DNA from: Bacteroidales bacterium UBA6408
Lineage (GTDB): Bacteria > Bacteroidota > Bacteroidia > Bacteroidales > UBA932
Reading direction: 5' to 3'
Assembly: GCA_002439805.1 (NCBI GenBank)
Contig: DJPQ01000002.1
Location: forward strand, 2,448 to 66,447
Length of the DNA stretch: 64,000 bases
Shown here: piece after piece, positions 46,765 through 57,745 of the stretch
How positions within the stretch are numbered: the first letter of the stretch is position 1
Layout of the letters: each line of letters begins with the position of its first letter
The notes under the pieces: model-generated
Databases searched by the model: none
Seen by the model: only the letters and a program-made list of their open reading frames with translations
Told to the model about the DNA's origin: nothing
Program-made: the position numbers and the translations under genes

Positions 46765-47856
46765 ATGGCAGAAAACAACTCATTGCTTGCGAAAGTCCTC
46801 GGACTCAGGGAAAAATACGAGTCGCTCCAGACCCAGCTTTCGGATCCGGACGTGATTTCCGACATGAAGAAATATGTCCAGCTCAACAAGGAATACAAGG
46901 AGCTGTCGCCAATCATAAAGGCCGGCGAGGAGTACAGGAAGCTCGTCGAATCCTATGAGATGGCCAAGGAAATCATCGCGGAGGAAAAGGACGAGGAGCT
47001 CAGGGAGATGGCAAAGGAGGAGATAGCGGAGATTGAGCCGCAGCTTCCCGAGATGGAGCAGAAAATCAAGCTCCTGCTCATCCCGGCCGACCCTCAGGAC
47101 AGCAAGAACGCCATTCTGGAAATCCGGGGAGGAGCCGGCGGCGACGAGGCGGCCATCTTTGCCGGAGACCTGTTCAGGATGTACAGCAAGTATTTCGAGC
47201 GCCGCGGCTGGAAGATGGAAATCAACAGCCAGTCGGAGGGCGCGGCCGGCGGATTCAAGGAAATCGTCGTGAAGGTCATCGGAGAGGGAGTCTATGGGGT
47301 GCTGAAATACGAGTCCGGAGTTCACCGCGTGCAGCGGGTGCCGCAGACCGAGACGCAGGGCAGGGTCCACACCTCGGCGGCTTCGGTGGCGGTGCTTCCG
47401 GAGGCGGACGAGTTCGACATCGAGCTGAACATGAACGACATCCGCAAGGACACATTCTGCTCTTCAGGCCCGGGAGGCCAGTCCGTCAACACGACCTACT
47501 CGGCAATCCGCCTCACCCACATCCCCTCCGGAATCGTGGTGCAGTGCCAGGACGAGAAGTCGCAGCTCAAGAACTTCGACAAGGCTCTCGCCGAACTCCG
47601 AACGAGGCTCTATAATATGGAGTACGAGAAATATCTGAACGAGATTTCCGCCAAGAGAAAGACCATGGTCTCCACCGGCGACCGCTCGGCGAAAATCCGC
47701 ACCTACAACTACCCGCAGTCCCGCGTGACCGACCACCGAATCAACTATACTATGTATAACCTTCCGGTCTTTATGGACGGCGACATCCAGGAGCTGCTTG
47801 ACCAGCTGCAGATTGCCGAGAACGCCGAACGACTAAAAGCCGCAGGCGAAGAGTGA
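46765..47856 (+). CDS. prfA: peptide chain release factor 1
   Basis: GGQ motif ([12 protein letters not shown]). RF1-type tripeptide region [18 protein letters not shown], i.e. PxT rather than the SPF of RF2. Confidence 0.92.
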
Positions 47857-47928
47857 CGGCGGGGCGCATAACTTGGAACTTTCTTCAGAATGAGTTGAAG
47901 TAAAGTTTGGTTTAGAAGTGAGCACATC

Positions 47929-47965
47929 AAAATGTCCGATTTTCTTTAAGAATTTCGGACATTTT
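47929..47965 (+). terminator. hairpin plus T-tract at the left island edge (probable prfA terminator)
   Basis: Perfect 11-bp stem aaaatgtccga / tcggacatttt with a 15-nt loop, running into attttatt. Confidence 0.5.
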
Positions 47966-48022
47966 ATTGCTGTGTCAAGAAGAAAATCGTATCTTCGCAC
48001 TACGAATCATTTTATCACAAAG

Positions 48023-48607
48023 ATGATACTAACAAAGGAAATACGGAATATAATAAGTAGTAACGAACCGAATAAGCTTTATATGGTGAGTGATTTTTCC
48101 CATCTGAATAATGACGGGTTGGTTACTCGCGCCCTTTCTCGTCTGGAAAAGGAAGGTGTTCTTATACGCCTCTCGCAAGGCATATATTTATATCCGTCAC
48201 GAAATAAGTTCGGAATACTTCGACCCTCTATAGAGGAAATCGCTTATGCTGTTGCTGAAAAGGATAAGGCACGCATTATTCCCAGTGGGCTGACTGCATT
48301 GAACAAATTGGGACTTTCCACACAGGTTACGATGAATGCGGTCTATTTGACAGATGCGGCTGCACGGGAACTTACTATCGGAAACCGTAAAATCACATTC
48401 AAACGCAGTGCTCCCCGCAATTTTGCTTATAAGACAGACTTGTTTCCGCTTATAGTCGCAGCAATGAAAGAATTAGGTAAAGACGGAGTAACCGATGAAC
48501 AAGTTGCCATCATAAAACAAGCCATTGAAAAACAGGGCGGCTCTGATGAAATCAGATACGATTACAGCATCGCTCCGCAATGGATTAAACAAAGACTTGC
48601 ATTATGA
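48023..48607 (+). CDS. AbiEi-type (DUF6088-like) antitoxin of a type IV TA / abortive infection pair
   Basis: 194 aa from MILTKEIRNII. Pattern ...ALSRLEKEGVLIRLSQGIYLYP....P...EIAYAVAEKDKARIIPSGLTALNKLGLSTQV....YLTD is typical of AbiEi-like transcriptional antitoxins. The stop overlaps the AbiEii ATG (ATGA). Confidence 0.7.
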   Translation: MILTKEIRNIISSNEPNKLYMVSDFSHLNNDGLVTRALSRLEKEGVLIRLSQGIYLYPSRNKFGILRPSIEEIAYAVAEKDKARIIPSGLTALNKLGLSTQVTMNAVYLTDAAARELTIGNRKITFKRSAPRNFAYKTDLFPLIVAAMKELGKDGVTDEQVAIIKQAIEKQGGSDEIRYDYSIAPQWIKQRLAL

Positions 48608-49392
48608 ACTTCACTAAACTTACAAAAGAAGAACAACTCACCATTTTGGCTAATGTCGCCGAAAATAAAGGGATTGTGGACAATGCCGTAGAGAAGGACT
48701 ATTGGGTCAGTATGGTATTACGTGCCATATTTTCTTTGCCGTATGCTACAGCTTTTGTATTCAAAGGAGGGACAAGCCTTAGCAAAGGATGGGGACTGAT
48801 AGAACGGTTCTCAGAAGATATTGACCTTGCAATAGATCCAAAACATCTCGGTTTCACAGACATTGCGACTAAAAGCCAACGGACTAAATTACGGAAAGAC
48901 TCCAAGAAGTTCATAGACAGTACTTTTGCGCTCGACATTAAGAATAGGCTAAAAGAGTTTGGGGTACTGGAATGTTGCGATGTCATAGTCCCAGAAACGT
49001 CTGTCAGCGACCTCGACCCTGTAGTCCTGTTTGTCGAATATGATTCGGTGCTGCAAACAAAAATGCAATATATACCGGAACGTGTCAAAGTTGAGATAAG
49101 CTGTCGTTCACTCATGGAACCGTCGGAAAAAGTAGAGATTCGTTCGATGATTGAAGATGCTTATCCCGACGAAGATTTCTCTCAGCCGACATTTATAGTC
49201 CCCACAGTAGTGCCCGGAAAGACATTCTTGGAAAAGGTTTTTCTCTTGCACGAAGAGTTTAATCGTCCCAATGGCTGCACGCATATTGAACGTATCACAC
49301 GACACATGTACGACATTGTAAAGATGATGGATAAACCGTTTGCGATGGAAGCGATGCAGAATGCACAATTATACGAGGACATAGTGGTATGA
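48604..49392 (+). CDS. AbiEii/AbiGii family nucleotidyltransferase toxin
   Basis: FKGGTSLSKGWGLIERFSEDIDLAID is the NTase signature of the AbiEii family; 262 aa. The stop overlaps the next ATG (ATGA at 49389). Confidence 0.8.
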   Translation: MNFTKLTKEEQLTILANVAENKGIVDNAVEKDYWVSMVLRAIFSLPYATAFVFKGGTSLSKGWGLIERFSEDIDLAIDPKHLGFTDIATKSQRTKLRKDSKKFIDSTFALDIKNRLKEFGVLECCDVIVPETSVSDLDPVVLFVEYDSVLQTKMQYIPERVKVEISCRSLMEPSEKVEIRSMIEDAYPDEDFSQPTFIVPTVVPGKTFLEKVFLLHEEFNRPNGCTHIERITRHMYDIVKMMDKPFAMEAMQNAQLYEDIVV

Positions 49393-50387
49393 CAGAAATT
49401 CATGTTGATATAAACGAAACGGAGATTTTCAAACTTTATCCCGAAGTATTGGAACTTTTACTCAAAGACCACACGACAGGACGGAATATCTTTTGGGCGA
49501 CGGATTCGTATGCACATAGGGGCGGTGGCTTTCAATATAGCGACGCCATAACAGCGGAACATATCATTGGGGAAAACGGGATGGTGATACGACCGCGTTC
49601 ATTAAAGAGCAAAGGAGAACAGACAGAACGCACAAAGGGAATGGCAGAGGTGTTTACACCGTCATGGGTCTGTAACGTTCAGAACAATCTTGTGGACGAG
49701 GCTTGGTTCGGAAGAAAAGATGTATTCAATACCGTTGACGACACTCAACATACTTGGATAGCCAATCCTGACAGAATTGTTTTCCCGGACAAAAAGACAT
49801 GGAAGTCATATATCCGGGCGACAAGAATGGAAATCACCTGCGGCGAAGCCCCTTACCTTGCCAGCCGTTATGATACGACAACCGGGGCTCCGATAGAATT
49901 GGGACAACGCATCGGAATGCTTGACAGAAAACTGCGTGTGGTCAGCGAAAACACAAAGACGAGCGGTGAATGGCTTAACATGGCGCAGGATGCCTATAAA
50001 AATATATATGCCTACGAATGGCAGGGAGACAATCTGCTTTTAGCACGAGAAGCGCTATTGGTCTCTTTTGCGGAATACTATTATGCGAAATTCGGGAAAA
50101 TGCCGTTGGCAAAATCTCTACAATATATAGCCTATATCATTTCTTGGAACGTCTGGCAAATGGACGGGCTTAAGGGAGTTGTGCCCGGCAGCTGCAAGAA
50201 TGGGGTTAAAGTCACCACACAAAGTTTATTCGGGACTACAGAGAGTATCGAGCATTGTTCTGGTTGTCGCAATGGTAATTTGAAAGAACACAATGGCATT
50301 TATTGCCTGATAAGGGATTGGGGATTAAAAGACCCAAAAACGGGAGAGAATAACAGAAAAATAAGGTTCATAGACATGATAAAATAA
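49389..50387 (+). CDS. hypothetical protein with N6-adenine-MTase-like N-terminal lobe motifs but no (D/N)PPY
   Basis: 332 aa with a motif-X-like MAEVFTPSWVCNVQNN and a motif-I-like RMEITCGEAPYLASRYD. No NPPY/DPPY anywhere. C-terminal HCSGC. The TP.W.V.N...N pattern recurs in the downstream giant protein (ETVLTPWRVVNMHIN). Confidence 0.5.
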   Translation: MTEIHVDINETEIFKLYPEVLELLLKDHTTGRNIFWATDSYAHRGGGFQYSDAITAEHIIGENGMVIRPRSLKSKGEQTERTKGMAEVFTPSWVCNVQNNLVDEAWFGRKDVFNTVDDTQHTWIANPDRIVFPDKKTWKSYIRATRMEITCGEAPYLASRYDTTTGAPIELGQRIGMLDRKLRVVSENTKTSGEWLNMAQDAYKNIYAYEWQGDNLLLAREALLVSFAEYYYAKFGKMPLAKSLQYIAYIISWNVWQMDGLKGVVPGSCKNGVKVTTQSLFGTTESIEHCSGCRNGNLKEHNGIYCLIRDWGLKDPKTGENNRKIRFIDMIK

Positions 50388-50399
50388 AAGTTGTATGAT

Positions 50400-53300
50400 A
50401 TGGCAACATTTGAGACCAGCTTAAAATCCAGACTGATATATGTCTTTGCTATCCCAGATGAATGGCATAAAGACTGTCTGAAAGTGGGCGAAACGACATT
50501 GGAGGAGGATGACGGAAACTTTCCTTTGCCCAATAGTGAGGTGCTTAACAAAGCGGCGCATAATCGTATAGACCAATATACAAAGACGGCAGGTATTGCC
50601 TATAACCTGCTTCATACGGAAATGACTGTGTTTTTCAAAGGTGGAACAATCAGCTCCTTCAACGATAAGCAGGTACACAGCGTATTGGAGCGTTCAGGTG
50701 TGAAGAAAAAGACGTTTGATACGGTAAAAGGGGCGAACGAATGGTTTTGCTGCGACCTTGAGACAGTCAAGAAAGCGATTCAGGCGATTAAGAACGGGAA
50801 AGACAGTCTGAATGCAAGTGAAATCAGTCATACTCAAACTCCTATAGTCTTCCGCCCAGAACAGCAGGCAGCTATTGACAAGACAAAGAAGCAGTTCAAG
50901 AAAGGCTCACAAATGCTTTGGAATGCAAAAATGCGTTTCGGCAAGACCTTATGCGCCCTGCGTGTGGCAAGGGATTTAGATATGCGACGCACCATTATCC
51001 TTACCCACCGTCCCGTAGTTGACGAGGGATGGTTTGAGGATTTCGGTAAGATATTCTATGACCGCCAAGACTATCATTACGGCTCGCGCACTAAAGGTGA
51101 AAGTTTCGCTTCCCTTGAACGGATGGCAGAAAGAGGTGACAAGTACGTCTATTTTGCTTCCATGCAAGATATGCGTGGAGCTCAACTGGTTGGAGGAAAG
51201 TTTGATAAAAATGATGATGTGTTCTCCACCGAATGGGATTTTCTGATTGTGGATGAAGCCCACGAAGGAACACGTACAGAACTTGGAGAGACCGTTATCA
51301 AGGAGTTGACCAAAACAAACACGAAAGTGCTTAAACTTTCAGGGACACCATTCAATCTGCTTGATGATTACACAGAAGAGGAAACGTACACTTGGGATTA
51401 CACCATGGAGCAGCGTGCCAAGACTGAATGGGACTTGTTGCACATGGGCGACCCCAATCCGTATGTTTCTCTACCTGCCATCAATATCTGCACCTACGAT
51501 CTCGGAGCGTTGATGAATGATTATTCCGATGATGAAAAGGCTTTCAATTTCCGTGAGTTCTTCCGCACAAAGGAAGACGGGACTTTCATTCACGAAAATG
51601 ATGTGGATAACTTCTTATCGCTACTGTGCAAGGATGACAAGGAAAGCCTTTATCCTTATTCCAACGACCTGTATCGTGGCATATTCCGCCATACGCTTTG
51701 GGTGCTTCCGGGTGTCAAGGCCGCCCGTGCATTGAGTGCGAAACTGAAAGAACATCCTATATTCGGCTGCTTCGAGATTGTCAATGTAGCCGGAAACGGT
51801 GATGAAGACGAGGAAAATGCAGACGCATTGCAAATGGTAAACACAGCCATAGGCAATAATCCTGATGAGACATTCACCATTACCCTGTCCTGCGGACGAC
51901 TGACAACAGGAGTGAGCATAAAGCCATGGACAGCTGTATTCATGATGGCAGGGTCTTTCAGTACATCTGCAGCAGGTTATATGCAGACCATATTCCGTGT
52001 ACAGACACCTTTTACCTGCAAGGGACGAATGAAGGAACAATGCTATGCTTTCGACTTTGCGCCAGACCGTACCTTGCGAATGTTGGCTGAGGTTGCTAAA
52101 GTCTCGGCTAAGGCCGGAAAGTCAACGGAAGAAGACCGCAAGATTTTAGGCGATTTTCTGAATTTCTGCCCTATCATATCCATTGAAGGCTCACAAATGA
52201 AGCCATACGATGTAAACAAAATGATGGGAGAGCTCAAGAAAGCCCAGATAGAAAAGGTTGTACAATGCGGTTTCGAAGACGGGGCATTGTACAATGATGA
52301 GCTGCTCAAACTTACGGATGTGGACCTTGCAGATTTCAAGAACCTGAAAGGCATCATCGGCAAGACAAAGGCCATGCCCAAGTCAGGTGATATTGATGTC
52401 AATAATCAAGGATTTACAAACGAGGAGTACGCGGAAAAAGAAAAACTTGAAAAGAAGCCCAAACGGGAGCGCACTCCAGAGGAGCAGGCTCGGTTAGACG
52501 AATTGAAGAAGCGTCATAACCAACGTAAAGATGCAATTTCAATACTGCGTGGTATCTCCATCCGTATGCCGCTGCTTATTTTCGGAGCGGAACTGAAAAA
52601 TGAAGCTGAAGAGATAACCATAGACAACTTTGCAAACCTTGTGGACGACACCTCTTGGACAGAGTTCATGCCTCAAGACGTCACTAAAGAAGTTTTTGCC
52701 AAGTTCAAACGCTTCTACGAGCCCGACGTATTCCGTGAAGCAGGCAAGCGTATCCGCGCTATGACTCGTGCTGCCGACAAGTTCAGCATAGAGCAGCGCA
52801 TCGAACGTATTGTCGGCATATTCAATACATTCCGCAATCCCGACAAAGAAACGGTCTTGACACCATGGCGTGTTGTCAATATGCACATCAACGATTGCTT
52901 GGGTGGATGGTGCTTTATGGATGAAGAGTTTAAGATTCCGTTGGAAACGCCGCGCTTTGTGGACAAGGGCGAGGTAACGCATTCCGTATTCAGAACGGAC
53001 AGCCTGATTATGGACATCAACTCGAAGAGCGGTCTTTATCCATTGCTCGCCGCTTATAACATTTACCGTAACCGTTTGGAGGCAGCCAAAGAAAAATATG
53101 GAGAATTCAGCAATGCCTTTTCAATGCAGCTATGGGATTTGACCATTGAACAGAATATCCTCGTGGTATGCAAGACCCCAATGGCGCGCAGCATTACACG
53201 TCGTACACTCGTCGGCTTCCGCGACACGGAAGTACATGCCGAATATTATAAGAACTTAATTGAAAACATATCCCAGAATCCTGACCTTGTGGTAAATACA

Positions 53301-54380
53301 CTTCGTGACGGCAAGTATTTCTGGGGCATAAACAGCAATGAATATATGACTATAGACGCCATTATAGGAAACCCTCCGTATCAGGAGGAGGGTATAAGTA
53401 CTCGTAAAGCACCTATCTATCACTTGTTTTACGACATTTCTTTCCGTTTGTCAGATAGAGTATCATTGATAACACCCGGGCGTTTTTTGTTCAAGGCGGG
53501 ACAAACGCCCAAAGAATGGATGGATAGGATTTTGGAAGACCGACATTTTAAGGTGGTGGATTACTTCCAAAAGTCAACGGACATATTCCCGTCTGTCGAT
53601 ATAAAAGGCGGCGTTGTAATCACTTGTCGTGATGCCAAGGCTGAATTTGAGCCAATCGGATTCTTTTCTGAATATGATGAATTAAAGAGTATTCTGCAAA
53701 AGGTGTTATCACATAAAGACTTTGTCAAGAACGAATTTAGCAATCTCGTATCTTCTCAAGGCCTTTATAAATTTTCAGAGGCGGCATTTAATGAACATCC
53801 TGAAATTTACGCAGTCCAAGGGAATGGAACTGCTGCAAAAATAACCTCAAATACGTTTGAACGCCTTCCTCATGTATTCCAAACGGAAGTGCCGGATAAT
53901 CCCGATGCTTTCATACGTATTTTGGGCCGGTCTCAAAATAAACGTGTCTATAAATGGATTGAGAAACGATATGTTTTACCAACTGACGGCTACTGTGAAT
54001 CTTTCAATGTTCTTGTCCCGGAAGCCAATGGAACGGGGTCAATCGGTGAAGTGCTCAGCACGCCGGTAATCGGCGTGCCGGTAATCGGGCACACCGACAC
54101 CTTCCTGAGCATCGGCAAGTTTACCGATGCCCAGCAAGCTGATCGGTGTCTCAAATACGTCAAGACAAAATTTGCCAGATGCATGTTGGGAACATTGAAA
54201 GCCACACAGCACAACCCACGTGAAACTTGGGCAAATGTGCCGATGCAGGATTTCACCTCTGAGAGTGATATAAATTGGAACACTCCTATGTCTGAAATAG
54301 ACAAGCAATTATACACCAAATACCGGCTCTCGAACGAGGAAATTCGGTTTATTGAACAGAATATCAAGCCGATGGAGTAA
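50400..54380 (+). CDS. fused GIY-YIG/T5orf172-like nuclease + SF2 (ResIII/DEAH) helicase + gamma-class N6-adenine MTase-like + TRD protein (Type ISP-like R-M enzyme)
   Basis: N-terminus LIYVFAI....CLKVGET....HNRI....ANEWF is GIY-YIG-like. Helicase motifs: I AKMRFGKT, II LIVDEAHEG, III LSGTPFN, VI YMQTIFRVQTP. MTase-like motifs: X VLTPWRVVNM, degenerate I LIMDINSKSGLYPL, IV IIGNPPYQ, then Eco57I-type SLITPGRFLFKAG...DIFPSVDIKGGVVI. Start set at ATG 50400; the track used TTG 50391. Confidence 0.8.
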   Translation: MATFETSLKSRLIYVFAIPDEWHKDCLKVGETTLEEDDGNFPLPNSEVLNKAAHNRIDQYTKTAGIAYNLLHTEMTVFFKGGTISSFNDKQVHSVLERSGVKKKTFDTVKGANEWFCCDLETVKKAIQAIKNGKDSLNASEISHTQTPIVFRPEQQAAIDKTKKQFKKGSQMLWNAKMRFGKTLCALRVARDLDMRRTIILTHRPVVDEGWFEDFGKIFYDRQDYHYGSRTKGESFASLERMAERGDKYVYFASMQDMRGAQLVGGKFDKNDDVFSTEWDFLIVDEAHEGTRTELGETVIKELTKTNTKVLKLSGTPFNLLDDYTEEETYTWDYTMEQRAKTEWDLLHMGDPNPYVSLPAINICTYDLGALMNDYSDDEKAFNFREFFRTKEDGTFIHENDVDNFLSLLCKDDKESLYPYSNDLYRGIFRHTLWVLPGVKAARALSAKLKEHPIFGCFEIVNVAGNGDEDEENADALQMVNTAIGNNPDETFTITLSCGRLTTGVSIKPWTAVFMMAGSFSTSAAGYMQTIFRVQTPFTCKGRMKEQCYAFDFAPDRTLRMLAEVAKVSAKAGKSTEEDRKILGDFLNFCPIISIEGSQMKPYDVNKMMGELKKAQIEKVVQCGFEDGALYNDELLKLTDVDLADFKNLKGIIGKTKAMPKSGDIDVNNQGFTNEEYAEKEKLEKKPKRERTPEEQARLDELKKRHNQRKDAISILRGISIRMPLLIFGAELKNEAEEITIDNFANLVDDTSWTEFMPQDVTKEVFAKFKRFYEPDVFREAGKRIRAMTRAADKFSIEQRIERIVGIFNTFRNPDKETVLTPWRVVNMHINDCLGGWCFMDEEFKIPLETPRFVDKGEVTHSVFRTDSLIMDINSKSGLYPLLAAYNIYRNRLEAAKEKYGEFSNAFSMQLWDLTIEQNILVVCKTPMARSITRRTLVGFRDTEVHAEYYKNLIENISQNPDLVVNTLRDGKYFWGINSNEYMTIDAIIGNPPYQEEGISTRKAPIYHLFYDISFRLSDRVSLITPGRFLFKAGQTPKEWMDRILEDRHFKVVDYFQKSTDIFPSVDIKGGVVITCRDAKAEFEPIGFFSEYDELKSILQKVLSHKDFVKNEFSNLVSSQGLYKFSEAAFNEHPEIYAVQGNGTAAKITSNTFERLPHVFQTEVPDNPDAFIRILGRSQNKRVYKWIEKRYVLPTDGYCESFNVLVPEANGTGSIGEVLSTPVIGVPVIGHTDTFLSIGKFTDAQQADRCLKYVKTKFARCMLGTLKATQHNPRETWANVPMQDFTSESDINWNTPMSEIDKQLYTKYRLSNEEIRFIEQNIKPME
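53350..53383 (+). repeat. inverted repeat, left copy (inside the expressed gene, on the IDAIIGNPPYQ codons)
   Basis: ctatagacgccattataggaaaccctccgtatca. Its reverse complement occurs at 55454..55487 with one mismatch (T/G). Confidence 0.9.
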
Positions 54381-54383
54381 ATG

Positions 54384-54422
54384 TTTGGCGTAATAAGTGA
54401 AAGTTCAACATATTACGCCAAA
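54384..54422. terminator. symmetric hairpin between the two convergent cassettes
   Basis: tttggcgtaata / tattacgccaaa perfect 12-bp stem with a 15-nt loop. It sits 4 nt after the stop at 54380 and 14 nt after the minus-strand stop at 54436, so it can serve either orientation. Confidence 0.6.
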
Positions 54423-54435
54423 TTCATTATTACTA

Positions 54436-55518
54436 CTAGTTCCCTTGTTTTTCCATAAGCACATCCTTGATAAGACTCTGTTCTTCTGTATTAATGTCAA
54501 ATAGAGAATAAAGTTGATAATCAATATCTTTCTTGAAATCCAAAATGCCATTGTCGTTCGTATAGTCCAATATATCAGGAACTAATTTGGCAAGGGAAGT
54601 CAATGCTTCGTCAGTTAGTAAAAAAGCGTAGCGAATAAGTTTGCTGTTGCAATAATCGAAAAAATTTAGGGCCTCTTGCTCCGTGAAAAATGTTTTAAGA
54701 GCAACTCTTGAACGCCCAAATGCACTACGGTTGTCCATCACCGCTATTTGATTGCTACGTTTCTGCCCACCGGCATTGGCACTTGACACAACTACTTTCC
54801 ACCGTGCTAATTGTTCTTTTCCTGTGGTTATGACATTCTTACTCGCCACATACCATTTTGCTCTACCGCTTTTGCCGGCCTTGTCGTTGGTAAACAACTT
54901 AATCTCATCATCTGACAGTGGTTCGCCTTCTTGATATTCACGCACCAATGTAGGGTTAGTTTCAACGAAATCACTTTCAATGGAAAATAATTTTTGAGAT
55001 AGAATAGAATCGTGTAAAAACGCAAATCGTTCTGATACACCCCGTTTAATCTTGGCGGCGATGCTAATATCCAATGGATTAAGAGGCATAAGGTCGTCTC
55101 TGGGGTTCGCTGCCTGTATTTGATGGGAGACTCCAGATTTTGAATAGATATAGGTAAATCCATCATTCTTTTTACTCATATCCTTGAAAACAATGGAAAT
55201 ACCATCTGCGATAGCGACGTCTTTGAAAATATCGGCCGAGTTCGGGAAATAATGCAGTTGTATTAAATGAGGGTCATTTATCTGTTCTAATCCAAATTGT
55301 TCCATGCCTTTCCCTGAACGATGAATCCATCGTCCTCCAGGGTAAATCAAAGCTGTGTATCTTGCAAGTCTATCACTGATAGTTTGAAAATGTTGAAAAA
55401 TACTTGAACTCCTTTTTTGTCCATTATCCGTATCAGCCTTTGCAACAGTTACTTGATACGGCGGGTTTCCTATAATGGCGTCTATAGGAACTACTCTGCC
55501 TATATTAGCATAGGCAAT
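54436..55518 (-). CDS. silent alternative C-terminal cassette (MTase motif IV to TRD), with no start codon or promoter of its own
   Basis: The minus frame is open from the in-frame TAA at 55519-55521 and reads IAYANIGRVVPIDAIIGNPPYQVTVAKADTDNGQKRSSSIFQHFQTISDRLARYTALIYPGGRWIHRSGKG...DIFKDVAIADGISIVFKD.... It is collinear with aa about 985-1326 of the big protein but strongly diverged after NPPYQ. No ATG lies upstream of the NPPY region; the track's M at 55350 is a TTG. Confidence 0.75.
   Translation of the reverse strand: MAYANIGRVVPIDAIIGNPPYQVTVAKADTDNGQKRSSSIFQHFQTISDRLARYTALIYPGGRWIHRSGKGMEQFGLEQINDPHLIQLHYFPNSADIFKDVAIADGISIVFKDMSKKNDGFTYIYSKSGVSHQIQAANPRDDLMPLNPLDISIAAKIKRGVSERFAFLHDSILSQKLFSIESDFVETNPTLVREYQEGEPLSDDEIKLFTNDKAGKSGRAKWYVASKNVITTGKEQLARWKVVVSSANAGGQKRSNQIAVMDNRSAFGRSRVALKTFFTEQEALNFFDYCNSKLIRYAFLLTDEALTSLAKLVPDILDYTNDNGILDFKKDIDYQLYSLFDINTEEQSLIKDVLMEKQGN
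55454..55487 (-). repeat. inverted repeat, right copy (on the IDAIIGNPPYQ codons of the silent cassette)
   Basis: Forward tgatacggcgggtttcctataatggcgtctatag is the reverse complement of the left copy, except for one base. Confidence 0.9.
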
Positions 55519-55547
55519 TTATATTTTACCCATTAACTAGAACAGAT

Positions 55548-56354
55548 ATGGACACAAGTGAATTTGAAGCATTCCTGAAGCAGGAAAATCTAGCTAAGAA
55601 CACCATTACAGCCTACATATATGCTGTGAAAGATTATTTTGTTCATTACAAGGGACTGAATAAATGCAATCTCATTGCCTACAAAAATCTCCTGACAGAT
55701 AATTTCAAGCCCAAGACTGTAAACCTCCGGATATTGGGTTTGAACAAGTATCTGGGATATATCGGCAAATCTAAGTTACATTTGAAAACCATAAAAGAGC
55801 AACAGTGCACTTATCTGGAAAATATCATCAGTAATGCCGATTACGAGTTTATGAAAAAACGTCTGAAGATGGAGAAAAACCAGACATGGTACTTTGCCGT
55901 GCGATTTCTTGCCGCTACCGGAGCAAGAATAAGTGAACTGATTCACTTGAAGGCAGAGCATATCTCAACTGGATATTTCGATATCTACTCCAAAGGCGGT
56001 AAAGTGCGCCGCATCTACATTCCAAAGCAGTTGTGTACTGAAAGTAATGCGTGGCTATCAGGCCAGAGACGCTCCGATGGTTATATTTTCTTGAATCAAT
56101 ACGGCCAGCGACTCACAACAAGAGGCATTGCACAACAGCTGAAGAAGTATGCCGTAAAATATGGTTTGAATGAGAAAGTTGTTTATCCTCATTCTTTTCG
56201 ACATCGTTTTGCAAAGAATTTCTTAGAAAAGTTCAATGATATATCCTTACTTGCCGACCTCATGGGACACGAAAGTATTGAAACCACTCGCATCTACCTA
56301 CGCCGCAGCAGCACTGAACAGCAACAGATAGTCGACAAGGTGATAACCTGGTAA
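55548..56354 (+). CDS. tyrosine site-specific recombinase (shufflon/invertase-type, XerC/D-like)
   Basis: 268 aa with an N-terminal SAM-like core-binding domain. Catalytic signature ATGARISEL (Arg), HSFRHRFA (His-x-x-Arg), GHESIETTRIYL (His...Tyr). Confidence 0.87.
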   Translation: MDTSEFEAFLKQENLAKNTITAYIYAVKDYFVHYKGLNKCNLIAYKNLLTDNFKPKTVNLRILGLNKYLGYIGKSKLHLKTIKEQQCTYLENIISNADYEFMKKRLKMEKNQTWYFAVRFLAATGARISELIHLKAEHISTGYFDIYSKGGKVRRIYIPKQLCTESNAWLSGQRRSDGYIFLNQYGQRLTTRGIAQQLKKYAVKYGLNEKVVYPHSFRHRFAKNFLEKFNDISLLADLMGHESIETTRIYLRRSSTEQQQIVDKVITW

Positions 56355-56470
56355 AATACGCCCTTTTATCCCTGCGGCATTGGCATAGATGTCAAGTCAA
56401 TAAGTACGAGTGCAGTATTGAATAGTCCAAGACATTTTTTGATTAGCACATAAGTCTGCACACATAAAAA

Positions 56471-56500
56471 TGTCCCGTTTTTTGCGTAAAAAATGGGACA
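56471..56500. terminator. hairpin at the right island edge, between the recombinase and the convergent patB-like gene
   Basis: tgtcccgtttttt / aaaaaatgggaca, a 13-bp stem with one G-T pair and a 4-nt loop. Confidence 0.4.
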
Positions 56501-56563
56501 AGACGGTGAGCAAAAAACTTTGTCACCATCTTGTTCGTTGTCCTTGAATTTACACCACTTTTG

Positions 56564-57745
56564 CTACAATGCCCGACTCAGCCGCTCAAGGCCGGCGAGG
56601 AGGAGGGAGCGGGGACAGGCGATGTTGAGGCGGATGAAGTTCTCGCCGCCGGGACCGTACATGGAGCCGGAATTGACCATTAGTTTCTGCTCGTCAAGCA
56701 GGAGCGCCGTGACCTCGTCGGCGTTCAGCCCCGTCGCGCTGATGTCAATCCAGACGAGATAGGTGCCTTCGAGTTCCGTGACGGGACACTGAGGGATGTG
56801 CTCGGAGAAAAAGACCTTGACCGTCATATAGTTGTCATAGAGGTAGCCGCGCAGCTCATCCAGCCAGTCGGCTCCCTCCGGAGAGTATGCAGCGAGGGTC
56901 GCCTCTACTCCGAACGGGTTCACGTCACAGACCTCGTTGATGTTGATTGCACGGTCTATGCGGGAGAGGATTTCGCAATCCTCCGCGATTATGTTCGCAA
57001 TCTGAAGTCCGGCGATGTTGAATGCCTTGCTCGGTGAGATGCAGGTGGCGGAGCCGAGCCTGAAAGCCTTGCCGAGAGAGGCGAAGGGAGTGTAGTCGTG
57101 TCCGGGGTAGGTCAGCTCGCAGTGAATCTCGTCGGAAATTACGAACACATTGTTCCTCAGACATATTTCCCCGACTCCGCGCAGTTCCTCCTCAGTCCAC
57201 ACCCGCCCGACGGGATTGTGGGGATTGCACAGAATCATAACCTTCGCCTTCTGGTCGGAGGCCTTCGCCTCAAGGTCGTCGAAGTCCATTCTCCACGAAA
57301 GTCCGTCGCGGAGAAGCCGGTTCGGGAGCATCTCGCATCCGTTGTTGCGGATGGACGAGAAGAAGCAGTTATAGACCGGAGGCTGCACTATGACCTTGTC
57401 TCCCGGGCGGGTCAGCGCCTTGATAATCGCTGAAATTGCAGGTACCACGCCGCTCGTGCAGATGAACCGGTCGCGCTCGAAGCGCACGCCGTGACGCTCT
57501 CTGAACCAGTCGATTACGGCATCATAGTAGGACTGCGGAACCTTGACATAGCCGAAAATCCCATGCTCTACCCTGCGGCGCAGCGCTTCAGTCACGCAGG
57601 GCGCCGTCCTGAAGTCCATGTCCGCGACCCACATCGGCAGCACGCCTTCCGCCGGGGTGTCCCATTTGTAGGAATTTGTCCCGCGCCTCGGAACTATCTC
57701 ATCAAAATTGTATTTTCCCATTTTCTCTAACATTTTACCCGCCAT
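56564..57745 (-). CDS. MalY/PatB family PLP-dependent cystathionine beta-lyase / aminotransferase
   Basis: N-terminus KYNFDEIVPRRGTNSYKWD and MWVADMDF. PLP-lysine context ISPSKAFNIAG. The start may be one of the nearby Met codons (57745, 57733, 57721). Confidence 0.85.
   Translation of the reverse strand: MAGKMLEKMGKYNFDEIVPRRGTNSYKWDTPAEGVLPMWVADMDFRTAPCVTEALRRRVEHGIFGYVKVPQSYYDAVIDWFRERHGVRFERDRFICTSGVVPAISAIIKALTRPGDKVIVQPPVYNCFFSSIRNNGCEMLPNRLLRDGLSWRMDFDDLEAKASDQKAKVMILCNPHNPVGRVWTEEELRGVGEICLRNNVFVISDEIHCELTYPGHDYTPFASLGKAFRLGSATCISPSKAFNIAGLQIANIIAEDCEILSRIDRAININEVCDVNPFGVEATLAAYSPEGADWLDELRGYLYDNYMTVKVFFSEHIPQCPVTELEGTYLVWIDISATGLNADEVTALLLDEQKLMVNSGSMYGPGGENFIRLNIACPRSLLLAGLERLSRAL

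What the first reader, a model, noticed from the sequence alone, without database searches (positions are those of the whole stretch)
50400..54380. Type ISP-like single-chain enzyme with a GIY-YIG/T5orf172-type nuclease head and a degenerate SAM-binding motif
Domain order read from the sequence is as follows. First a GIY-YIG-like domain: LIYVF...LKVGET...HNRI...ANEWF. Then an SF2 helicase: AKMRFGKT, DEAH, SGTP, QTIFRVQ. Then a region of about 400 aa containing MTase motif X (VLTPWRVVNM) and a motif-I position that reads IMDINSKSGLY instead of the usual DPxCGSGxF. Then NPPY and Eco57I-type motifs, followed by the TRD. Characterised Type ISP enzymes (LlaGI/LlaBIII) use an Mrr/PD-(D/E)xK nuclease head, so a GIY-YIG head is an unusual substitution. 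The poor glycine loop raises the question of whether this module still methylates. If not, self-protection must come from elsewhere, possibly the 332-aa upstream ORF.
Basis: partly seen in the sequence, partly recalled or inferred. Interest (0 to 1): 0.75.

Follow-up and report, generated by a model that had tools for sequence, protein, structure and literature searches.

The report
Specificity-switching GIY-YIG helicase restriction-methylase

Summary

- **Nuclease head:** the N-terminal 140 aa belong to the T5orf172 branch of the GIY-YIG clan.
- **Motor:** an SF2 ResIII-type domain follows.
- **Methylase:** the C-terminal 630 aa fold with high confidence as a gamma-class adenine methylase plus TRD (CamA, BrxX, LlaBIII, LlaGI).

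- **'Degenerate' motif I:** INSKSGLY is an invariant family signature. It also occurs in a stand-alone methylase of a split version of the system, so it is not decay.
- **Upstream 332-aa ORF:** it is a near-obligate partner (60 of 63 species loci), but it has no NPPY and no TRD. It is an unlikely protective methylase.

Two features were missed.

- **Inverted repeat:** a 34-nt repeat (33/34) encodes IDAIIGNPPYQ at 53350-53383 and 55454-55487.
- **Silent cassette and recombinase:** an in-frame silent 349-codon cassette lies at 55485-54436 (-), next to a tyrosine recombinase (55548-56354).

Together these form a specificity shufflon. Both orientations occur in a Bacteroides graminisolvens homologue.

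The pieces are individually known: split MTase-helicase-GIY-YIG systems and inversions in Eco57I-type genes. The family is large and catalogued. Verdict: an uncharacterised variant of a known kind, of moderate interest.

The parts
49389..50387 (+). Conserved 332-aa partner gene of unknown function. It has a methylase-like partial fold and invariant Cys/His residues suggesting a zinc site.
   Evidence: More than 8,000 relatives. It lies directly upstream of the main gene in 57 of 63 species loci, and within 1.2 kb in 3 more. PADLOC MTase_II 4e-115. No Pfam, NCBIfam or PDB hit. AF2 pLDDT 79.8, pTM 0.81. Foldseek against PDB gave nothing below E 0.8. Foldseek against BFVD gave a 173-aa 'N-6 DNA methylase' fragment at 8.7e-11. 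Invariant C269, C290, C293, H301, C306.
50400..54380 (+). Main gene: 1,326-aa single-chain nuclease-motor-methylase-TRD enzyme in its currently expressed configuration.
   Evidence: ORF. Start set by homologues. Pfam ResIII + Eco57I.
50400..50819 (+). N-terminal T5orf172 / GIY-YIG-clan nuclease domain (aa 1-140).
   Evidence: T5orf172 20.1 bits against cut-off 20. 27 of 33 family members hit it, best 1.4e-8; 8 hit MUG113. Invariant Y14, K28, G30, E114, W115 and near-invariant R56, H93.
50856..52280 (+). SF2 helicase-like motor (aa ~153-627): Walker A AKMRFGKT, DEAH, SGTP, LSCGRLTTGVS, QTIFRVQ.
   Evidence: Pfam ResIII 153-321, 1.9e-14. The motifs are near-invariant in alignment A2. Positions. 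The C-terminal boundary is my inference.
52488..53383 (+). Helical coupler and the fixed N-terminal half of the methylase (motif X VLTPWRVVNM, motif I variant IMDINSKSGLY, motif II region NILVVCKTPMA, up to NPPY).
   Evidence: AF2 model pLDDT 90.3 with strands beta1-beta4. Family conservation. Foldseek matches to CamA, BrxX, LlaBIII.
53350..53383 (.). Left inverted repeat (IR-L), encoding IDAIIGNPPYQ (methylase motif IV). Proposed recombination site.
   Evidence: 34 nt, 33/34 complementary to 55454-55487, with unrelated sequence on both sides. The same site carries the only IR of at least 20 nt in the P. gulae and P. melaninogenica loci.
53384..54380 (+). Active C-terminal cassette: methylase motifs after IV, plus TRD and C-terminal helices (aa 996-1326).
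   Evidence: Eco57I profile runs through to aa 1066. AF2 and Foldseek. C-termini diverge far more than heads among relatives.
54384..54422 (.). Hairpin between the two convergent cassettes. Likely a shared terminator for whichever cassette is expressed.
   Evidence: Inverted repeat 54384-54398 / 54408-54422, 15 nt, 93%. The terminator role is my inference.
54436..55485 (-). Silent alternative C-terminal cassette (349 codons). It is in frame with the repeat and has no upstream homology to the head.
   Evidence: Translation. Eco57I profile positions 76-171, 1.6e-11. Only 23-31% identical to the expressed-position C-termini of family members retrieved in the earlier searches. The same cassette type is fused in frame to family heads in relatives P0393, P0402, P0409, P0461. 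In-silico inversion gives an intact 1,333-aa ORF.
55454..55487 (.). Right inverted repeat (IR-R).
55548..56354 (+). Tyrosine recombinase (268 aa), the presumed invertase.
   Evidence: Pfam Phage_integrase 4.4e-27. NCBIfam Xer-like, with weak hits to tyrosine-type DNA invertases. A ~267-aa homologue sits in the same position in P. gulae, P. melaninogenica, B. graminisolvens, L017, L028 and L069.

Best explanation
The locus encodes a two-gene, ATP-dependent restriction-modification system built like a Type ISP enzyme but with different parts.

**The main protein.** One polypeptide carries four modules:
- a T5orf172/GIY-YIG nuclease;
- an SF2 translocase;
- a helical coupler;
- a gamma-class N6-adenine methylase with its TRD.

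**Proposed mechanism.** The TRD and methylase read an asymmetric site and methylate it on host DNA. On unmodified DNA the motor translocates and the GIY-YIG head cuts. These steps are inferred from the architecture, not shown.

**The switch.** A tyrosine recombinase inverts the 2.07-kb segment between two 34-bp repeats that encode IDAIIGNPPYQ. This replaces everything from methylase motif IV to the stop codon with a promoterless alternative cassette. Because the TRD serves both activities, methylation and restriction specificity change together, as in Type I hsdS shufflons.

**The partner.** The 332-aa upstream protein is a conserved accessory subunit whose role is unknown. It is not the protective methylase.

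**What is shown and what is inferred.** Shown: domain identities, repeat geometry, reading-frame compatibility, conservation of the module, and natural occurrence of both orientations in a homologous locus. Inferred: enzymatic activities, actual inversion in this strain, and what the partner does.
For: **Domain identities**
- ResIII and Eco57I.
- T5orf172 at family level, with conserved Y/K-G/R/E catalytic-type residues.
- Methylase-TRD model at pLDDT 90.3, matching CamA 5.8e-12, BrxX 2.7e-10, LlaBIII 4.3e-9, LlaGI 1.2e-7, DrdV and MmeI.

**Purifying selection**
- Walker A, DEAH, NSK(S/T)G and GNPPYQ are near-invariant in members from several phyla.

**Shufflon in the window**
- A 33/34 inverted repeat lies exactly at NPPY and is sharply bounded.
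- The silent cassette is in frame, is intact, and matches the C-terminal half of the Eco57I profile.
- In-silico inversion gives 1,333 aa.
- The recombinase is adjacent.

**Shufflon elsewhere**
- The same four-part module, with an IR at the same codons, occurs in P. gulae, P. melaninogenica, L017, L028 and L069.
- In B. graminisolvens a 3,265-bp segment is inverted at 100% identity between assemblies L013 and L015.
- The silent-type cassette is found fused to family heads elsewhere.

**Literature**
- Split MmeI-like methylase + DEAD helicase + GIY-YIG clusters are proposed to act together (PMC2731913). Deleting the methylase (dnmA) or helicase (yeeB) homologue in Vibrio crassostreae increased phage sensitivity, as cited in PMC9973331.

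**Partner linkage**
- 60 of 63 loci carry the partner gene.
Against: - No biochemical or methylome data exist for any member that I could find.
- All eight assemblies of this exact locus (the window plus L001-L007) show the same orientation. Inversion in this strain is therefore unproven.
- The methylase lacks the first glycine of motif I. At the position I aligned by eye with the motif II ribose-binding acid there is no acidic residue.
- The window's own T5orf172 score sits on the threshold, and the fold of the head was not modelled.
- A family HMM does not detect LlaGI/LlaBIII at sequence level. The mechanistic analogy rests on architecture and on the fold of the methylase-TRD half only.
- The related split system in B. 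subtilis showed no restriction or anti-phage activity (PMC9973331).
- Only 3 of 58 species loci with enough downstream sequence carry the shufflon. It is an add-on, not a family trait.
Confidence: 0.7

Rival explanations
1. The methylase module of the large protein has lost SAM binding and serves only as a DNA-recognition scaffold. Host protection comes from the 332-aa upstream protein acting as the methylase.
For: - Motif I has Lys where the first Gly normally sits. No acidic residue is seen at the usual motif II position.
- The partner hits a PADLOC 'MTase_II' model at 4e-115, and some sources name it 'restriction endonuclease subunit M'.
- Its predicted fold weakly resembles adenine methylases.
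- It is almost always present.
Against: - GNPPYQ is invariant. The motif I variant is itself invariant and is shared with a stand-alone methylase of the split system.
- The modelled methylase core has all seven strands at pLDDT above 90.
- The partner has no NPPY/DPPY-type motif and no variable region to match the highly variable TRDs.
- It is outside the invertible segment, so a specificity switch would be lethal if it were the only protector.
- It has no Pfam methylase hit, and hhalign finds no relation to the main family.
- M.TaqI, an active gamma-class enzyme, also has a one-glycine motif I (my own knowledge, not tested here).
Confidence: 0.07
2. The system is mainly a phase-variable epigenetic regulator (a 'phasevarion'), or a relic in which only the methylase matters. 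The nuclease and motor no longer restrict foreign DNA.
For: - The split DnmA-YeeB-YeeC cluster of B. subtilis methylates but shows no restriction or phage protection (PMC9973331).
- Inversion-driven specificity switching of methylases is a known way to vary gene expression (PMC7672463, PMC9881135).
- Some relatives are visibly damaged: the P. gulae L009 gene is split 1,212 + 91 aa, and an IS sits in the P. melaninogenica cassette.
Against: - Nuclease and helicase motifs are near-invariant across phyla in full-length 1,300-1,380-aa proteins. This argues for selection on both activities.
- The locus lies in a low-GC island next to an AbiE abortive-infection pair.
- Deleting the methylase or helicase homologue of the split system in Vibrio increased phage sensitivity (cited in PMC9973331).
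- The two roles are not mutually exclusive.
Confidence: 0.13
3. There is no programmed switch. The reverse-strand cassette is a decaying remnant of a duplicated or recombined gene, and the tyrosine recombinase is the integrase of the 8.5-kb island.
For: - Only one orientation is seen in eight assemblies of this locus.
- The island has lower GC, 43% against 54-55%, and a 21-nt imperfect direct repeat at its edges.
- The recombinase's best NCBIfam matches are Xer-like rather than invertase models.
Against: - The cassette is an intact 349-codon frame that starts exactly at the repeat.
- The repeat keeps 33/34 nt, synonymous sites included, while the flanks are unrelated.
- The same arrangement recurs at different chromosomal sites in at least six other species.
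- An exact inversion between such repeats is observed in B. graminisolvens.
- Hundreds of ~350-aa ORFs in the database begin right at 'AIIGNPPYQ'.
Confidence: 0.05

Closest known systems
Type ISP restriction-modification enzymes LlaGI / LlaBIII (PDB 5FFJ, 4XQK)
   Same: Both are single polypeptides with the order nuclease - SF2 motor - coupler - gamma-class adenine methylase - TRD. The methylase-TRD half is structurally similar (Foldseek 4.3e-9 and 1.2e-7).
   Different: - The head is T5orf172/GIY-YIG instead of Mrr/PD-(D/E)xK.
- There is no detectable sequence homology with a family HMM.
- A near-obligate 332-aa partner gene is present.
- Motif I is a variant.
- This locus adds an inversion switch.
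- Translocation-collision cleavage is untested.
Split MmeI-like methylase + DEAD helicase + GIY-YIG/T5orf172 clusters (B. subtilis DnmA-YeeB-YeeC; Vibrio crassostreae homologues)
   Same: The same three activities are combined (PMC2731913, PMC9973331). A split version of this very family exists in L016: a 913-aa T5orf172-helicase plus a 500-aa Eco57I methylase plus the partner.
   Different: Here all three are fused in one chain in the order nuclease-helicase-methylase. The methylase is of the Eco57I/CamA-like type rather than MmeI-like. Homology of the window protein to YeeB/YeeC themselves was not tested.
Programmed inversions in Type II/IIG RM, PglX and DrmMI genes (Milman et al. 2023, PMC9881135) and Type I hsdS shufflons (PMC7672463)
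   Same: Inverted repeats inside the coding sequence, a shorter promoterless partial copy in the opposite orientation, and a neighbouring recombinase. The outcome is switching of DNA specificity. 'Eco57I ... domain-containing protein' is one of the annotations most enriched among predicted inversion targets in that study.
   Different: - The crossover site is the catalytic NPPY motif itself, so half of the methylase catalytic domain is swapped along with the TRD.
- The target is a helicase-nuclease fusion.
- This family is not singled out in that paper: no mention of T5orf172, Prevotella or Porphyromonas, and only one unrelated mention of GIY-YIG, in a Type I locus.
CamA (C. difficile orphan adenine methylase) and BrxX/PglX
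   Same: These are the best structural matches to the C-terminal 630 aa (5.8e-12; 2.7e-10).
   Different: CamA has no nuclease or motor. BrxX works within a multi-gene BREX system. Sequence identity is only 9-13%.

Membership tests
GIY-YIG clan, T5orf172 family (Pfam PF10544) | Profile-HMM match at or above the curated threshold. | tested here: met
   The window domain scores 20.1 bits against cut-off 20.0 as a 140-aa slice and 19.7 as a 152-aa slice, so it is borderline. 27 of 33 diverse homologous domains match, best 1.4e-8, and 8 also hit MUG113. T5orf172 was not listed in the full-length scan at E <= 0.1.
GIY-YIG clan, T5orf172 family (Pfam PF10544) | Conserved catalytic-type residues: Tyr of 'GIY', Gly of 'YIG', Arg, Glu. 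| tested here: met
   Y14, K28-x-G30 and E114 are invariant. R56 and H93 are at least 90% conserved in alignment A1. 'YIG' reads K(I/V)G; that this is usual for T5orf172 is my own knowledge.
GIY-YIG clan, T5orf172 family (Pfam PF10544) | GIY-YIG alpha/beta fold. | not tested
The profile search against PDB sequences found nothing.
Type ISP restriction-modification enzymes | Single polypeptide with nuclease, SF2 helicase-like motor, methylase and TRD in that order. | tested here: met
Type ISP restriction-modification enzymes | Mrr-type PD-(D/E)xK nuclease head, as in the characterised members. | tested here: not met
   The head is T5orf172/GIY-YIG-like. LlaGI/LlaBIII heads are Mrr-type (PMC2790908, PMC3553950).
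Type ISP restriction-modification enzymes | Homology to LlaGI/LlaBIII. | tested here: inconclusive
   Neither the single sequence nor the family HMM hits them among PDB sequences at the E-value limits used (0.01 and 1). The methylase-TRD half matches their structures at 4.3e-9 and 1.2e-7, but CamA and BrxX match better. The motor half was not modelled.
Type ISP restriction-modification enzymes | ATP-driven translocation from an asymmetric site, cleavage on head-on collision, one-strand methylation. | not testable with these tools
   This needs biochemistry.
Type IIG (combined R-M in one chain, REBASE/PADLOC sense) | Match to a catalogued Type IIG model. | tested here: inconclusive
   PADLOC REase_MTase_IIG PDLC03626 scores 2.3e-39, but the best stretch covers only aa 954-1328 and the total is 133 bits. 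This is a related C-terminus, not the same family. A helicase motor is not a Type IIG feature.
Gamma-class N6-adenine DNA methylases (Eco57I Pfam PF07669) | Motif order X-I-II-...-IV with (N/D)PP(Y/F), and the seven-stranded Rossmann-like fold. | tested here: met
   Eco57I 2e-25. GNPPYQ is invariant. The model shows seven strands that I assign to beta1-beta7, at high pLDDT. Foldseek matches adenine methylases.
Gamma-class N6-adenine DNA methylases (Eco57I Pfam PF07669) | Canonical SAM-binding residues: glycine-rich motif I and the acidic residue of motif II. | tested here: not met
   Motif I is NSK(S/T)G with one Gly. I found no acidic residue at the end of beta2 ('VxCKT'). Both variants are conserved, so the test speaks to the canonical motif, not to activity.
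Programmed-inversion specificity shufflons | Inverted repeats within the coding sequence, an oppositely oriented in-frame partial copy, and an adjacent recombinase. | tested here: met
Programmed-inversion specificity shufflons | Both orientations present in natural populations. | tested here: inconclusive
   For this locus only one orientation is seen in eight assemblies. For the homologous B. graminisolvens locus both are seen, at 100% identity over 3,265 bp.
DNA methyltransferase (as claimed for the 332-aa partner) | A recognised methylase profile, a catalytic motif IV, and a complete Rossmann-like fold. | tested here: not met
   - No Pfam or NCBIfam hit.
- I found no (D/N/S)PP(Y/F/W) motif in the sequence or in the family alignment.
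- No PDB fold match below E 0.8.
- Only a 173-aa viral fragment labelled 'N-6 DNA methylase' (8.7e-11) and weak methylase-enriched hits.
- The PADLOC label 'MTase_II' is a catalogue name, not a test.

The most novel reading that the evidence does not exclude
The 332-aa partner is a methylase-derived, catalytically inactive subunit that the large enzyme needs. It would gate or complete cofactor (SAM) binding by the non-canonical methylase domain, or couple methylation status to licensing of the nuclease and motor. It would then be comparable in logic to METTL14 for METTL3, or Trm112 for NPPY methylases.

On this reading the family would be a distinct, widespread, two-subunit class of ATP-dependent restriction-modification enzymes with a GIY-YIG nuclease, not a Type ISP look-alike. 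In a subset of Bacteroidales it would be combined with a shufflon that recombines within the catalytic motif.
Probability: 0.15. Interest if true: 0.8.

Novelty: new variant of a known kind. Interest (0 to 1): 0.55.

Why it matters
If the model is right, this is a very common but unstudied kind of motor-driven restriction enzyme in human oral and gut Bacteroidales and in many other phyla. It differs from the two characterised Type ISP enzymes in three ways:

- **Nuclease chemistry:** GIY-YIG instead of PD-(D/E)xK.
- **Subunit composition:** a conserved partner of unknown role.
- **Switchability (this lineage only):** specificity can be changed by DNA inversion.

A switch that recombines inside the NPPY catalytic motif shows that half a methylase catalytic domain can be exchanged as a module, which is useful for engineering specificity. 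Switching would also change the methylome, and hence phage and plasmid susceptibility, of clonal populations. That bears on phage therapy and on genetic tractability of Prevotella and Porphyromonas.

The partner protein is a well-defined target: highly conserved, a confident predicted fold, and no known function.

Tried and rejected
1. **PDB sequence searches.** I searched with the full protein, the N-terminal profile, the full family profile, the partner (single sequence and profile) and the split-system methylase. Nothing significant was found.
2. **PHROGs.** No hit for the head domain or the partner.
3. **Partner as a paralogue of the methylase N-half.** By eye I saw 'AEVFTPSWVCN' against 'ETVLTPWRVVN', 'EITCGEAPYL' as motif I, and 'IISWNVWQ' as a dead motif IV. 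hhalign found no relation, and the AF2 model puts 'IAYIISWN' in a helix, not a strand. I dropped the dead-motif-IV reading. Only a weak methylase-like resemblance remains.
4. **Reading the partner as a C5-methylase from 'TCGE...SENT' spacing.** Rejected, because no motif I sits at the required position.
5. **Looking for the inverted state of this exact locus.** The silent cassette was searched against the 5.8-billion-protein set and its contigs were fetched. The two closest hits (100% and 93% identical) are short silent ORFs, and all seven contigs carrying the identical cassette have the window's orientation.
6. **Is the shufflon a general property of the family?** No. It is present in 3 of 58 species loci with enough downstream sequence.
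7. **Promoter and terminator scans.** Counts were at or below shuffled expectation, so they are not used as evidence.
8. **Island edges.** The 21-nt direct repeat was not followed up as an att site.

Full report
**1. What is in the sequence**

The region lies in an 8.5-kb stretch of 43% G+C. The flanks are 54-55%. The stretch sits between prfA (46765-47856) and an aminotransferase gene (56564-57745, minus strand). From left to right it holds:

- an AbiEi/AbiEii pair (47918-48607 and 48604-49392);
- a 332-aa ORF (49389-50387);
- a long ORF (50391/50400-54380);
- a reverse-strand ORF (54436-55350 as listed);
- a tyrosine recombinase gene (55548-56354).

Homologues of 1,320-1,326 aa, including one 100% identical, fix the start of the long ORF at the ATG at 50400.

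**2. Domain identities of the 1,326-aa protein**

- **Whole protein.** Pfam gives ResIII (aa 153-321, 1.9e-14) and Eco57I (921-1066, 2e-25).
- **N-terminal 140-150 aa scanned alone.** These sit on the T5orf172 threshold: 20.1 or 19.7 bits against a cut-off of 20. They also hit MUG113 weakly. Both are families I know to belong to the GIY-YIG clan.
- **Independent support for the head.** I searched this domain against 1.84 billion representative proteins. It found 382 clusters, nearly all either fragments or 1,3xx-aa proteins of the same architecture.
- **Diverse copies of the head.** In an alignment of 33 copies, Y14, K28, G30, E114 and W115 are invariant, and R56 and H93 nearly so. 27 of the 33 copies hit T5orf172, best 1.4e-8. 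The GIY-YIG assignment stands at family level. The fold itself was not modelled.
- **C-terminal 630 aa (697-1326).** The model has mean pLDDT 90.3 and seven strands that I assign to beta1-beta7 of a methylase core.
- **Fold matches for the C-terminal half.** It matches adenine methylase-TRD structures: CamA 5.8e-12, BrxX 2.7e-10, LlaBIII 4.3e-9, LlaGI 1.2e-7, then DrdV, M.BseCI and MmeI.
- **Limit of the ISP comparison.** At sequence level, neither the protein nor a family HMM detects LlaGI/LlaBIII or anything else in the PDB.

**3. The 'degenerate' SAM motif**

Across members that are 30-60% identical, the stretch reads '(L/M)(E/D)(I/L)NSK(S/T)GLYPL' almost without change. So do 'FRNPDKETVLTPWRVVN' (motif X), 'NIFVxCKTPMA..IT.RTL' and 'GNPPYQ'.

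A split version of the system (L016) has a stand-alone 500-aa Eco57I-type methylase with 'FLDPFTKSGVFL' and 'VFGIACTEL'. The Lys-for-Gly change, and the lack of the usual acidic residue after beta2, are therefore subfamily signatures under selection, not decay. Whether they alter cofactor binding cannot be told from sequence.

**4. The missed feature: an inversion switch**

- **The repeat.** The only long inverted repeat in 47000-57000 is 34 nt, 33/34 matched, at 53350-53383 and 55454-55487. Both arms encode IDAIIGNPPYQ. Sequence on either side of the arms is unrelated.
- **The silent cassette.** Read on the minus strand from 55485, the frame stays open for 349 codons to 54436. This product matches positions 76-171 of the Eco57I profile (1.6e-11). 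It is only 23-31% identical to the expressed-position C-termini of family members retrieved in the earlier searches.
- **In-silico inversion.** Inverting 53384-55453 gives an intact 1,333-aa ORF and leaves the present C-terminus as an in-frame silent cassette of 342 codons.
- **Shared hairpin.** A hairpin at 54384-54422 lies between the two convergent cassettes.

**5. Is the switch real?**

- **Same module elsewhere.** Partner, ~1,320-aa gene, inverted ~350-aa cassette and ~267-aa recombinase occur together at unrelated chromosomal sites in Porphyromonas gulae and Prevotella melaninogenica. In each, the only inverted repeat of at least 20 nt lies on the same codons. The module also occurs in L017, L028 and L069; the last has two cassettes.
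- **Silent cassettes are common.** Searching the silent cassette returns hundreds of ~350-aa ORFs that begin just before 'AIIGNPPYQ', which are silent cassettes elsewhere. It also returns fragments in which this cassette type is fused in frame to the family head (P0393, P0402, P0409, P0461).
- **Both orientations in nature.** In Bacteroides graminisolvens, assemblies L013/L014 and L015 differ by an exact inversion of 3,265 bp. Identity is 100% and 99.6%, and the segment is bounded by ~160-bp imperfect inverted repeats.
- **Not yet shown for this locus.** All eight assemblies of the window's own locus have one orientation, so inversion here is inferred.
- **A minority trait.** The shufflon is present in only 3 of 58 species-representative loci with enough downstream sequence.

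**6. The 332-aa partner**

- **Linkage.** It has more than 8,000 relatives. It lies directly upstream in 57 of 63 species loci, and within 1.2 kb in three more. Only three Lactobacillales loci lack it. It also accompanies the split system, overlapping the start of the methylase gene.
- **No recognised family.** It has no Pfam, NCBIfam, PHROG or PDB-sequence match. Its only catalogue match is a PADLOC 'MTase_II' model (4e-115).
- **Fold.** The model is confident (pLDDT 79.8, pTM 0.81) but matches no solved structure below E 0.8. The weak top hits are BrxX, PglX and DrdV. Among viral models it matches a 173-aa fragment labelled 'N-6 DNA methylase' (8.7e-11). Several of the top 25 weaker hits are adenine methylases.
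- **Sequence features.** It has no (D/N/S)PP(Y/F) motif and no variable segment. It has invariant Cys/His residues that suggest a zinc site. hhalign sees no relation to the main family.
- **Conclusion.** It is a core subunit with a methylase-like partial fold and unknown role. It is not a plausible sequence-specific protector for an enzyme whose TRD varies and, in this locus, can be switched.

**7. Mechanism proposed**

See the best explanation. The key logical point is that the swapped segment runs from motif IV through the TRD. One event therefore changes the specificity of methylation and of restriction together. That is safe for the host only if the same polypeptide performs both.

**8. 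Comparison with what is known**

- **Characterised Type ISP enzymes.** They have an Mrr head (PMC2790908, PMC3553950). The 2012/2013 LlaBIII paper already remarks that related helicase-linked RM enzymes 'utilize different endonuclease families (e.g. GIY-YIG)'.
- **Split systems.** MmeI-like methylase + DEAD helicase + GIY-YIG clusters were described in 2009 (PMC2731913). They were studied as DnmA-YeeB-YeeC, which is inactive in B. subtilis. Deleting the methylase or helicase homologue in Vibrio increased phage sensitivity (PMC9973331).
[quoted passage not shown] That paper does not single out this family. The 2006 GIY-YIG survey does not list this fusion either.
- **Gap.** In the searchable library I found no experimental work on any member of the fused family.

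**9. Verdict**

- **Observation:** confirmed.
- **Interpretation:** partly supported. The architecture and the GIY-YIG head are right. The 'degenerate' methylase and the protective role proposed for the upstream ORF are not supported.
- **The family:** it is large, spans many phyla and is already catalogued under generic names.
the NPPY-site shufflon and the near-obligate partner.
- **Classification:** a new variant of a known kind. Interest 0.55.

Noticed in passing
window 47918-49392: An AbiEi/AbiEii abortive-infection (type IV toxin-antitoxin) pair lies directly upstream. AbiEii is 262 aa and matches only positions 5-234 of a 309-position PADLOC profile. Its stop overlaps the partner gene's start by 4 nt, so the toxin may be C-terminally truncated by, or fused in an operon with, the RM module.
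   Followed up: partly
window 47929-47965: A near-perfect palindrome (AAAATGTCCGATTTTCTT / AAGAATTTCGGACATTTT) sits just upstream of, or at the start of, abiEi. It may be an AbiEi operator.
   Followed up: no
window 47923-47943 and 56461-56481: A 21-nt imperfect direct repeat (86%) lies at both edges of the 43% G+C island, and each copy sits within a hairpin-forming sequence. The copies may be remnants of an insertion site. Not tested against genomes that lack the island.
   Followed up: no
L013/L014 14188-14985; L015 13965-14762: The invertible segment of the B. graminisolvens homologue carries an extra 265-aa ORF with no Pfam hit between the two cassettes. It flips with the segment.
   Followed up: no
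L016 9001-15185: A split version of the system: 342-aa partner, 500-aa Eco57I methylase, a 226-aa 23S_rRNA_IVP-like protein, and a 913-aa T5orf172-helicase protein. The last is 27% identical to aa 23-837 of the window enzyme (E 6e-82).
   Followed up: partly
L058, L082, L086 (Limosilactobacillus, Granulicatella, Lactobacillaceae): These are the only full-length family members found without the partner gene. Their stop-to-stop frames are longer (1,455-1,474 codons), so the N-terminus may differ.
   Followed up: no
L009 11148-15097; L011 12003-14563: Signs of decay in relatives. The P. gulae strain in L009 has the main gene split into 1,212 + 91 aa. P. melaninogenica has a DDE transposase inserted in the silent cassette.
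   Followed up: no
window 54436-55350 (-); PADLOC PDLC03375: A 348-position PADLOC 'MTase_II' model aligns with the silent cassette (aa 6-298 of the 304-aa ORF, E 1.7e-4) and with the C-terminus of the main protein (E 1.3e-27). Catalogues may therefore hold such promoterless cassettes as if they were stand-alone methylases.
   Followed up: no
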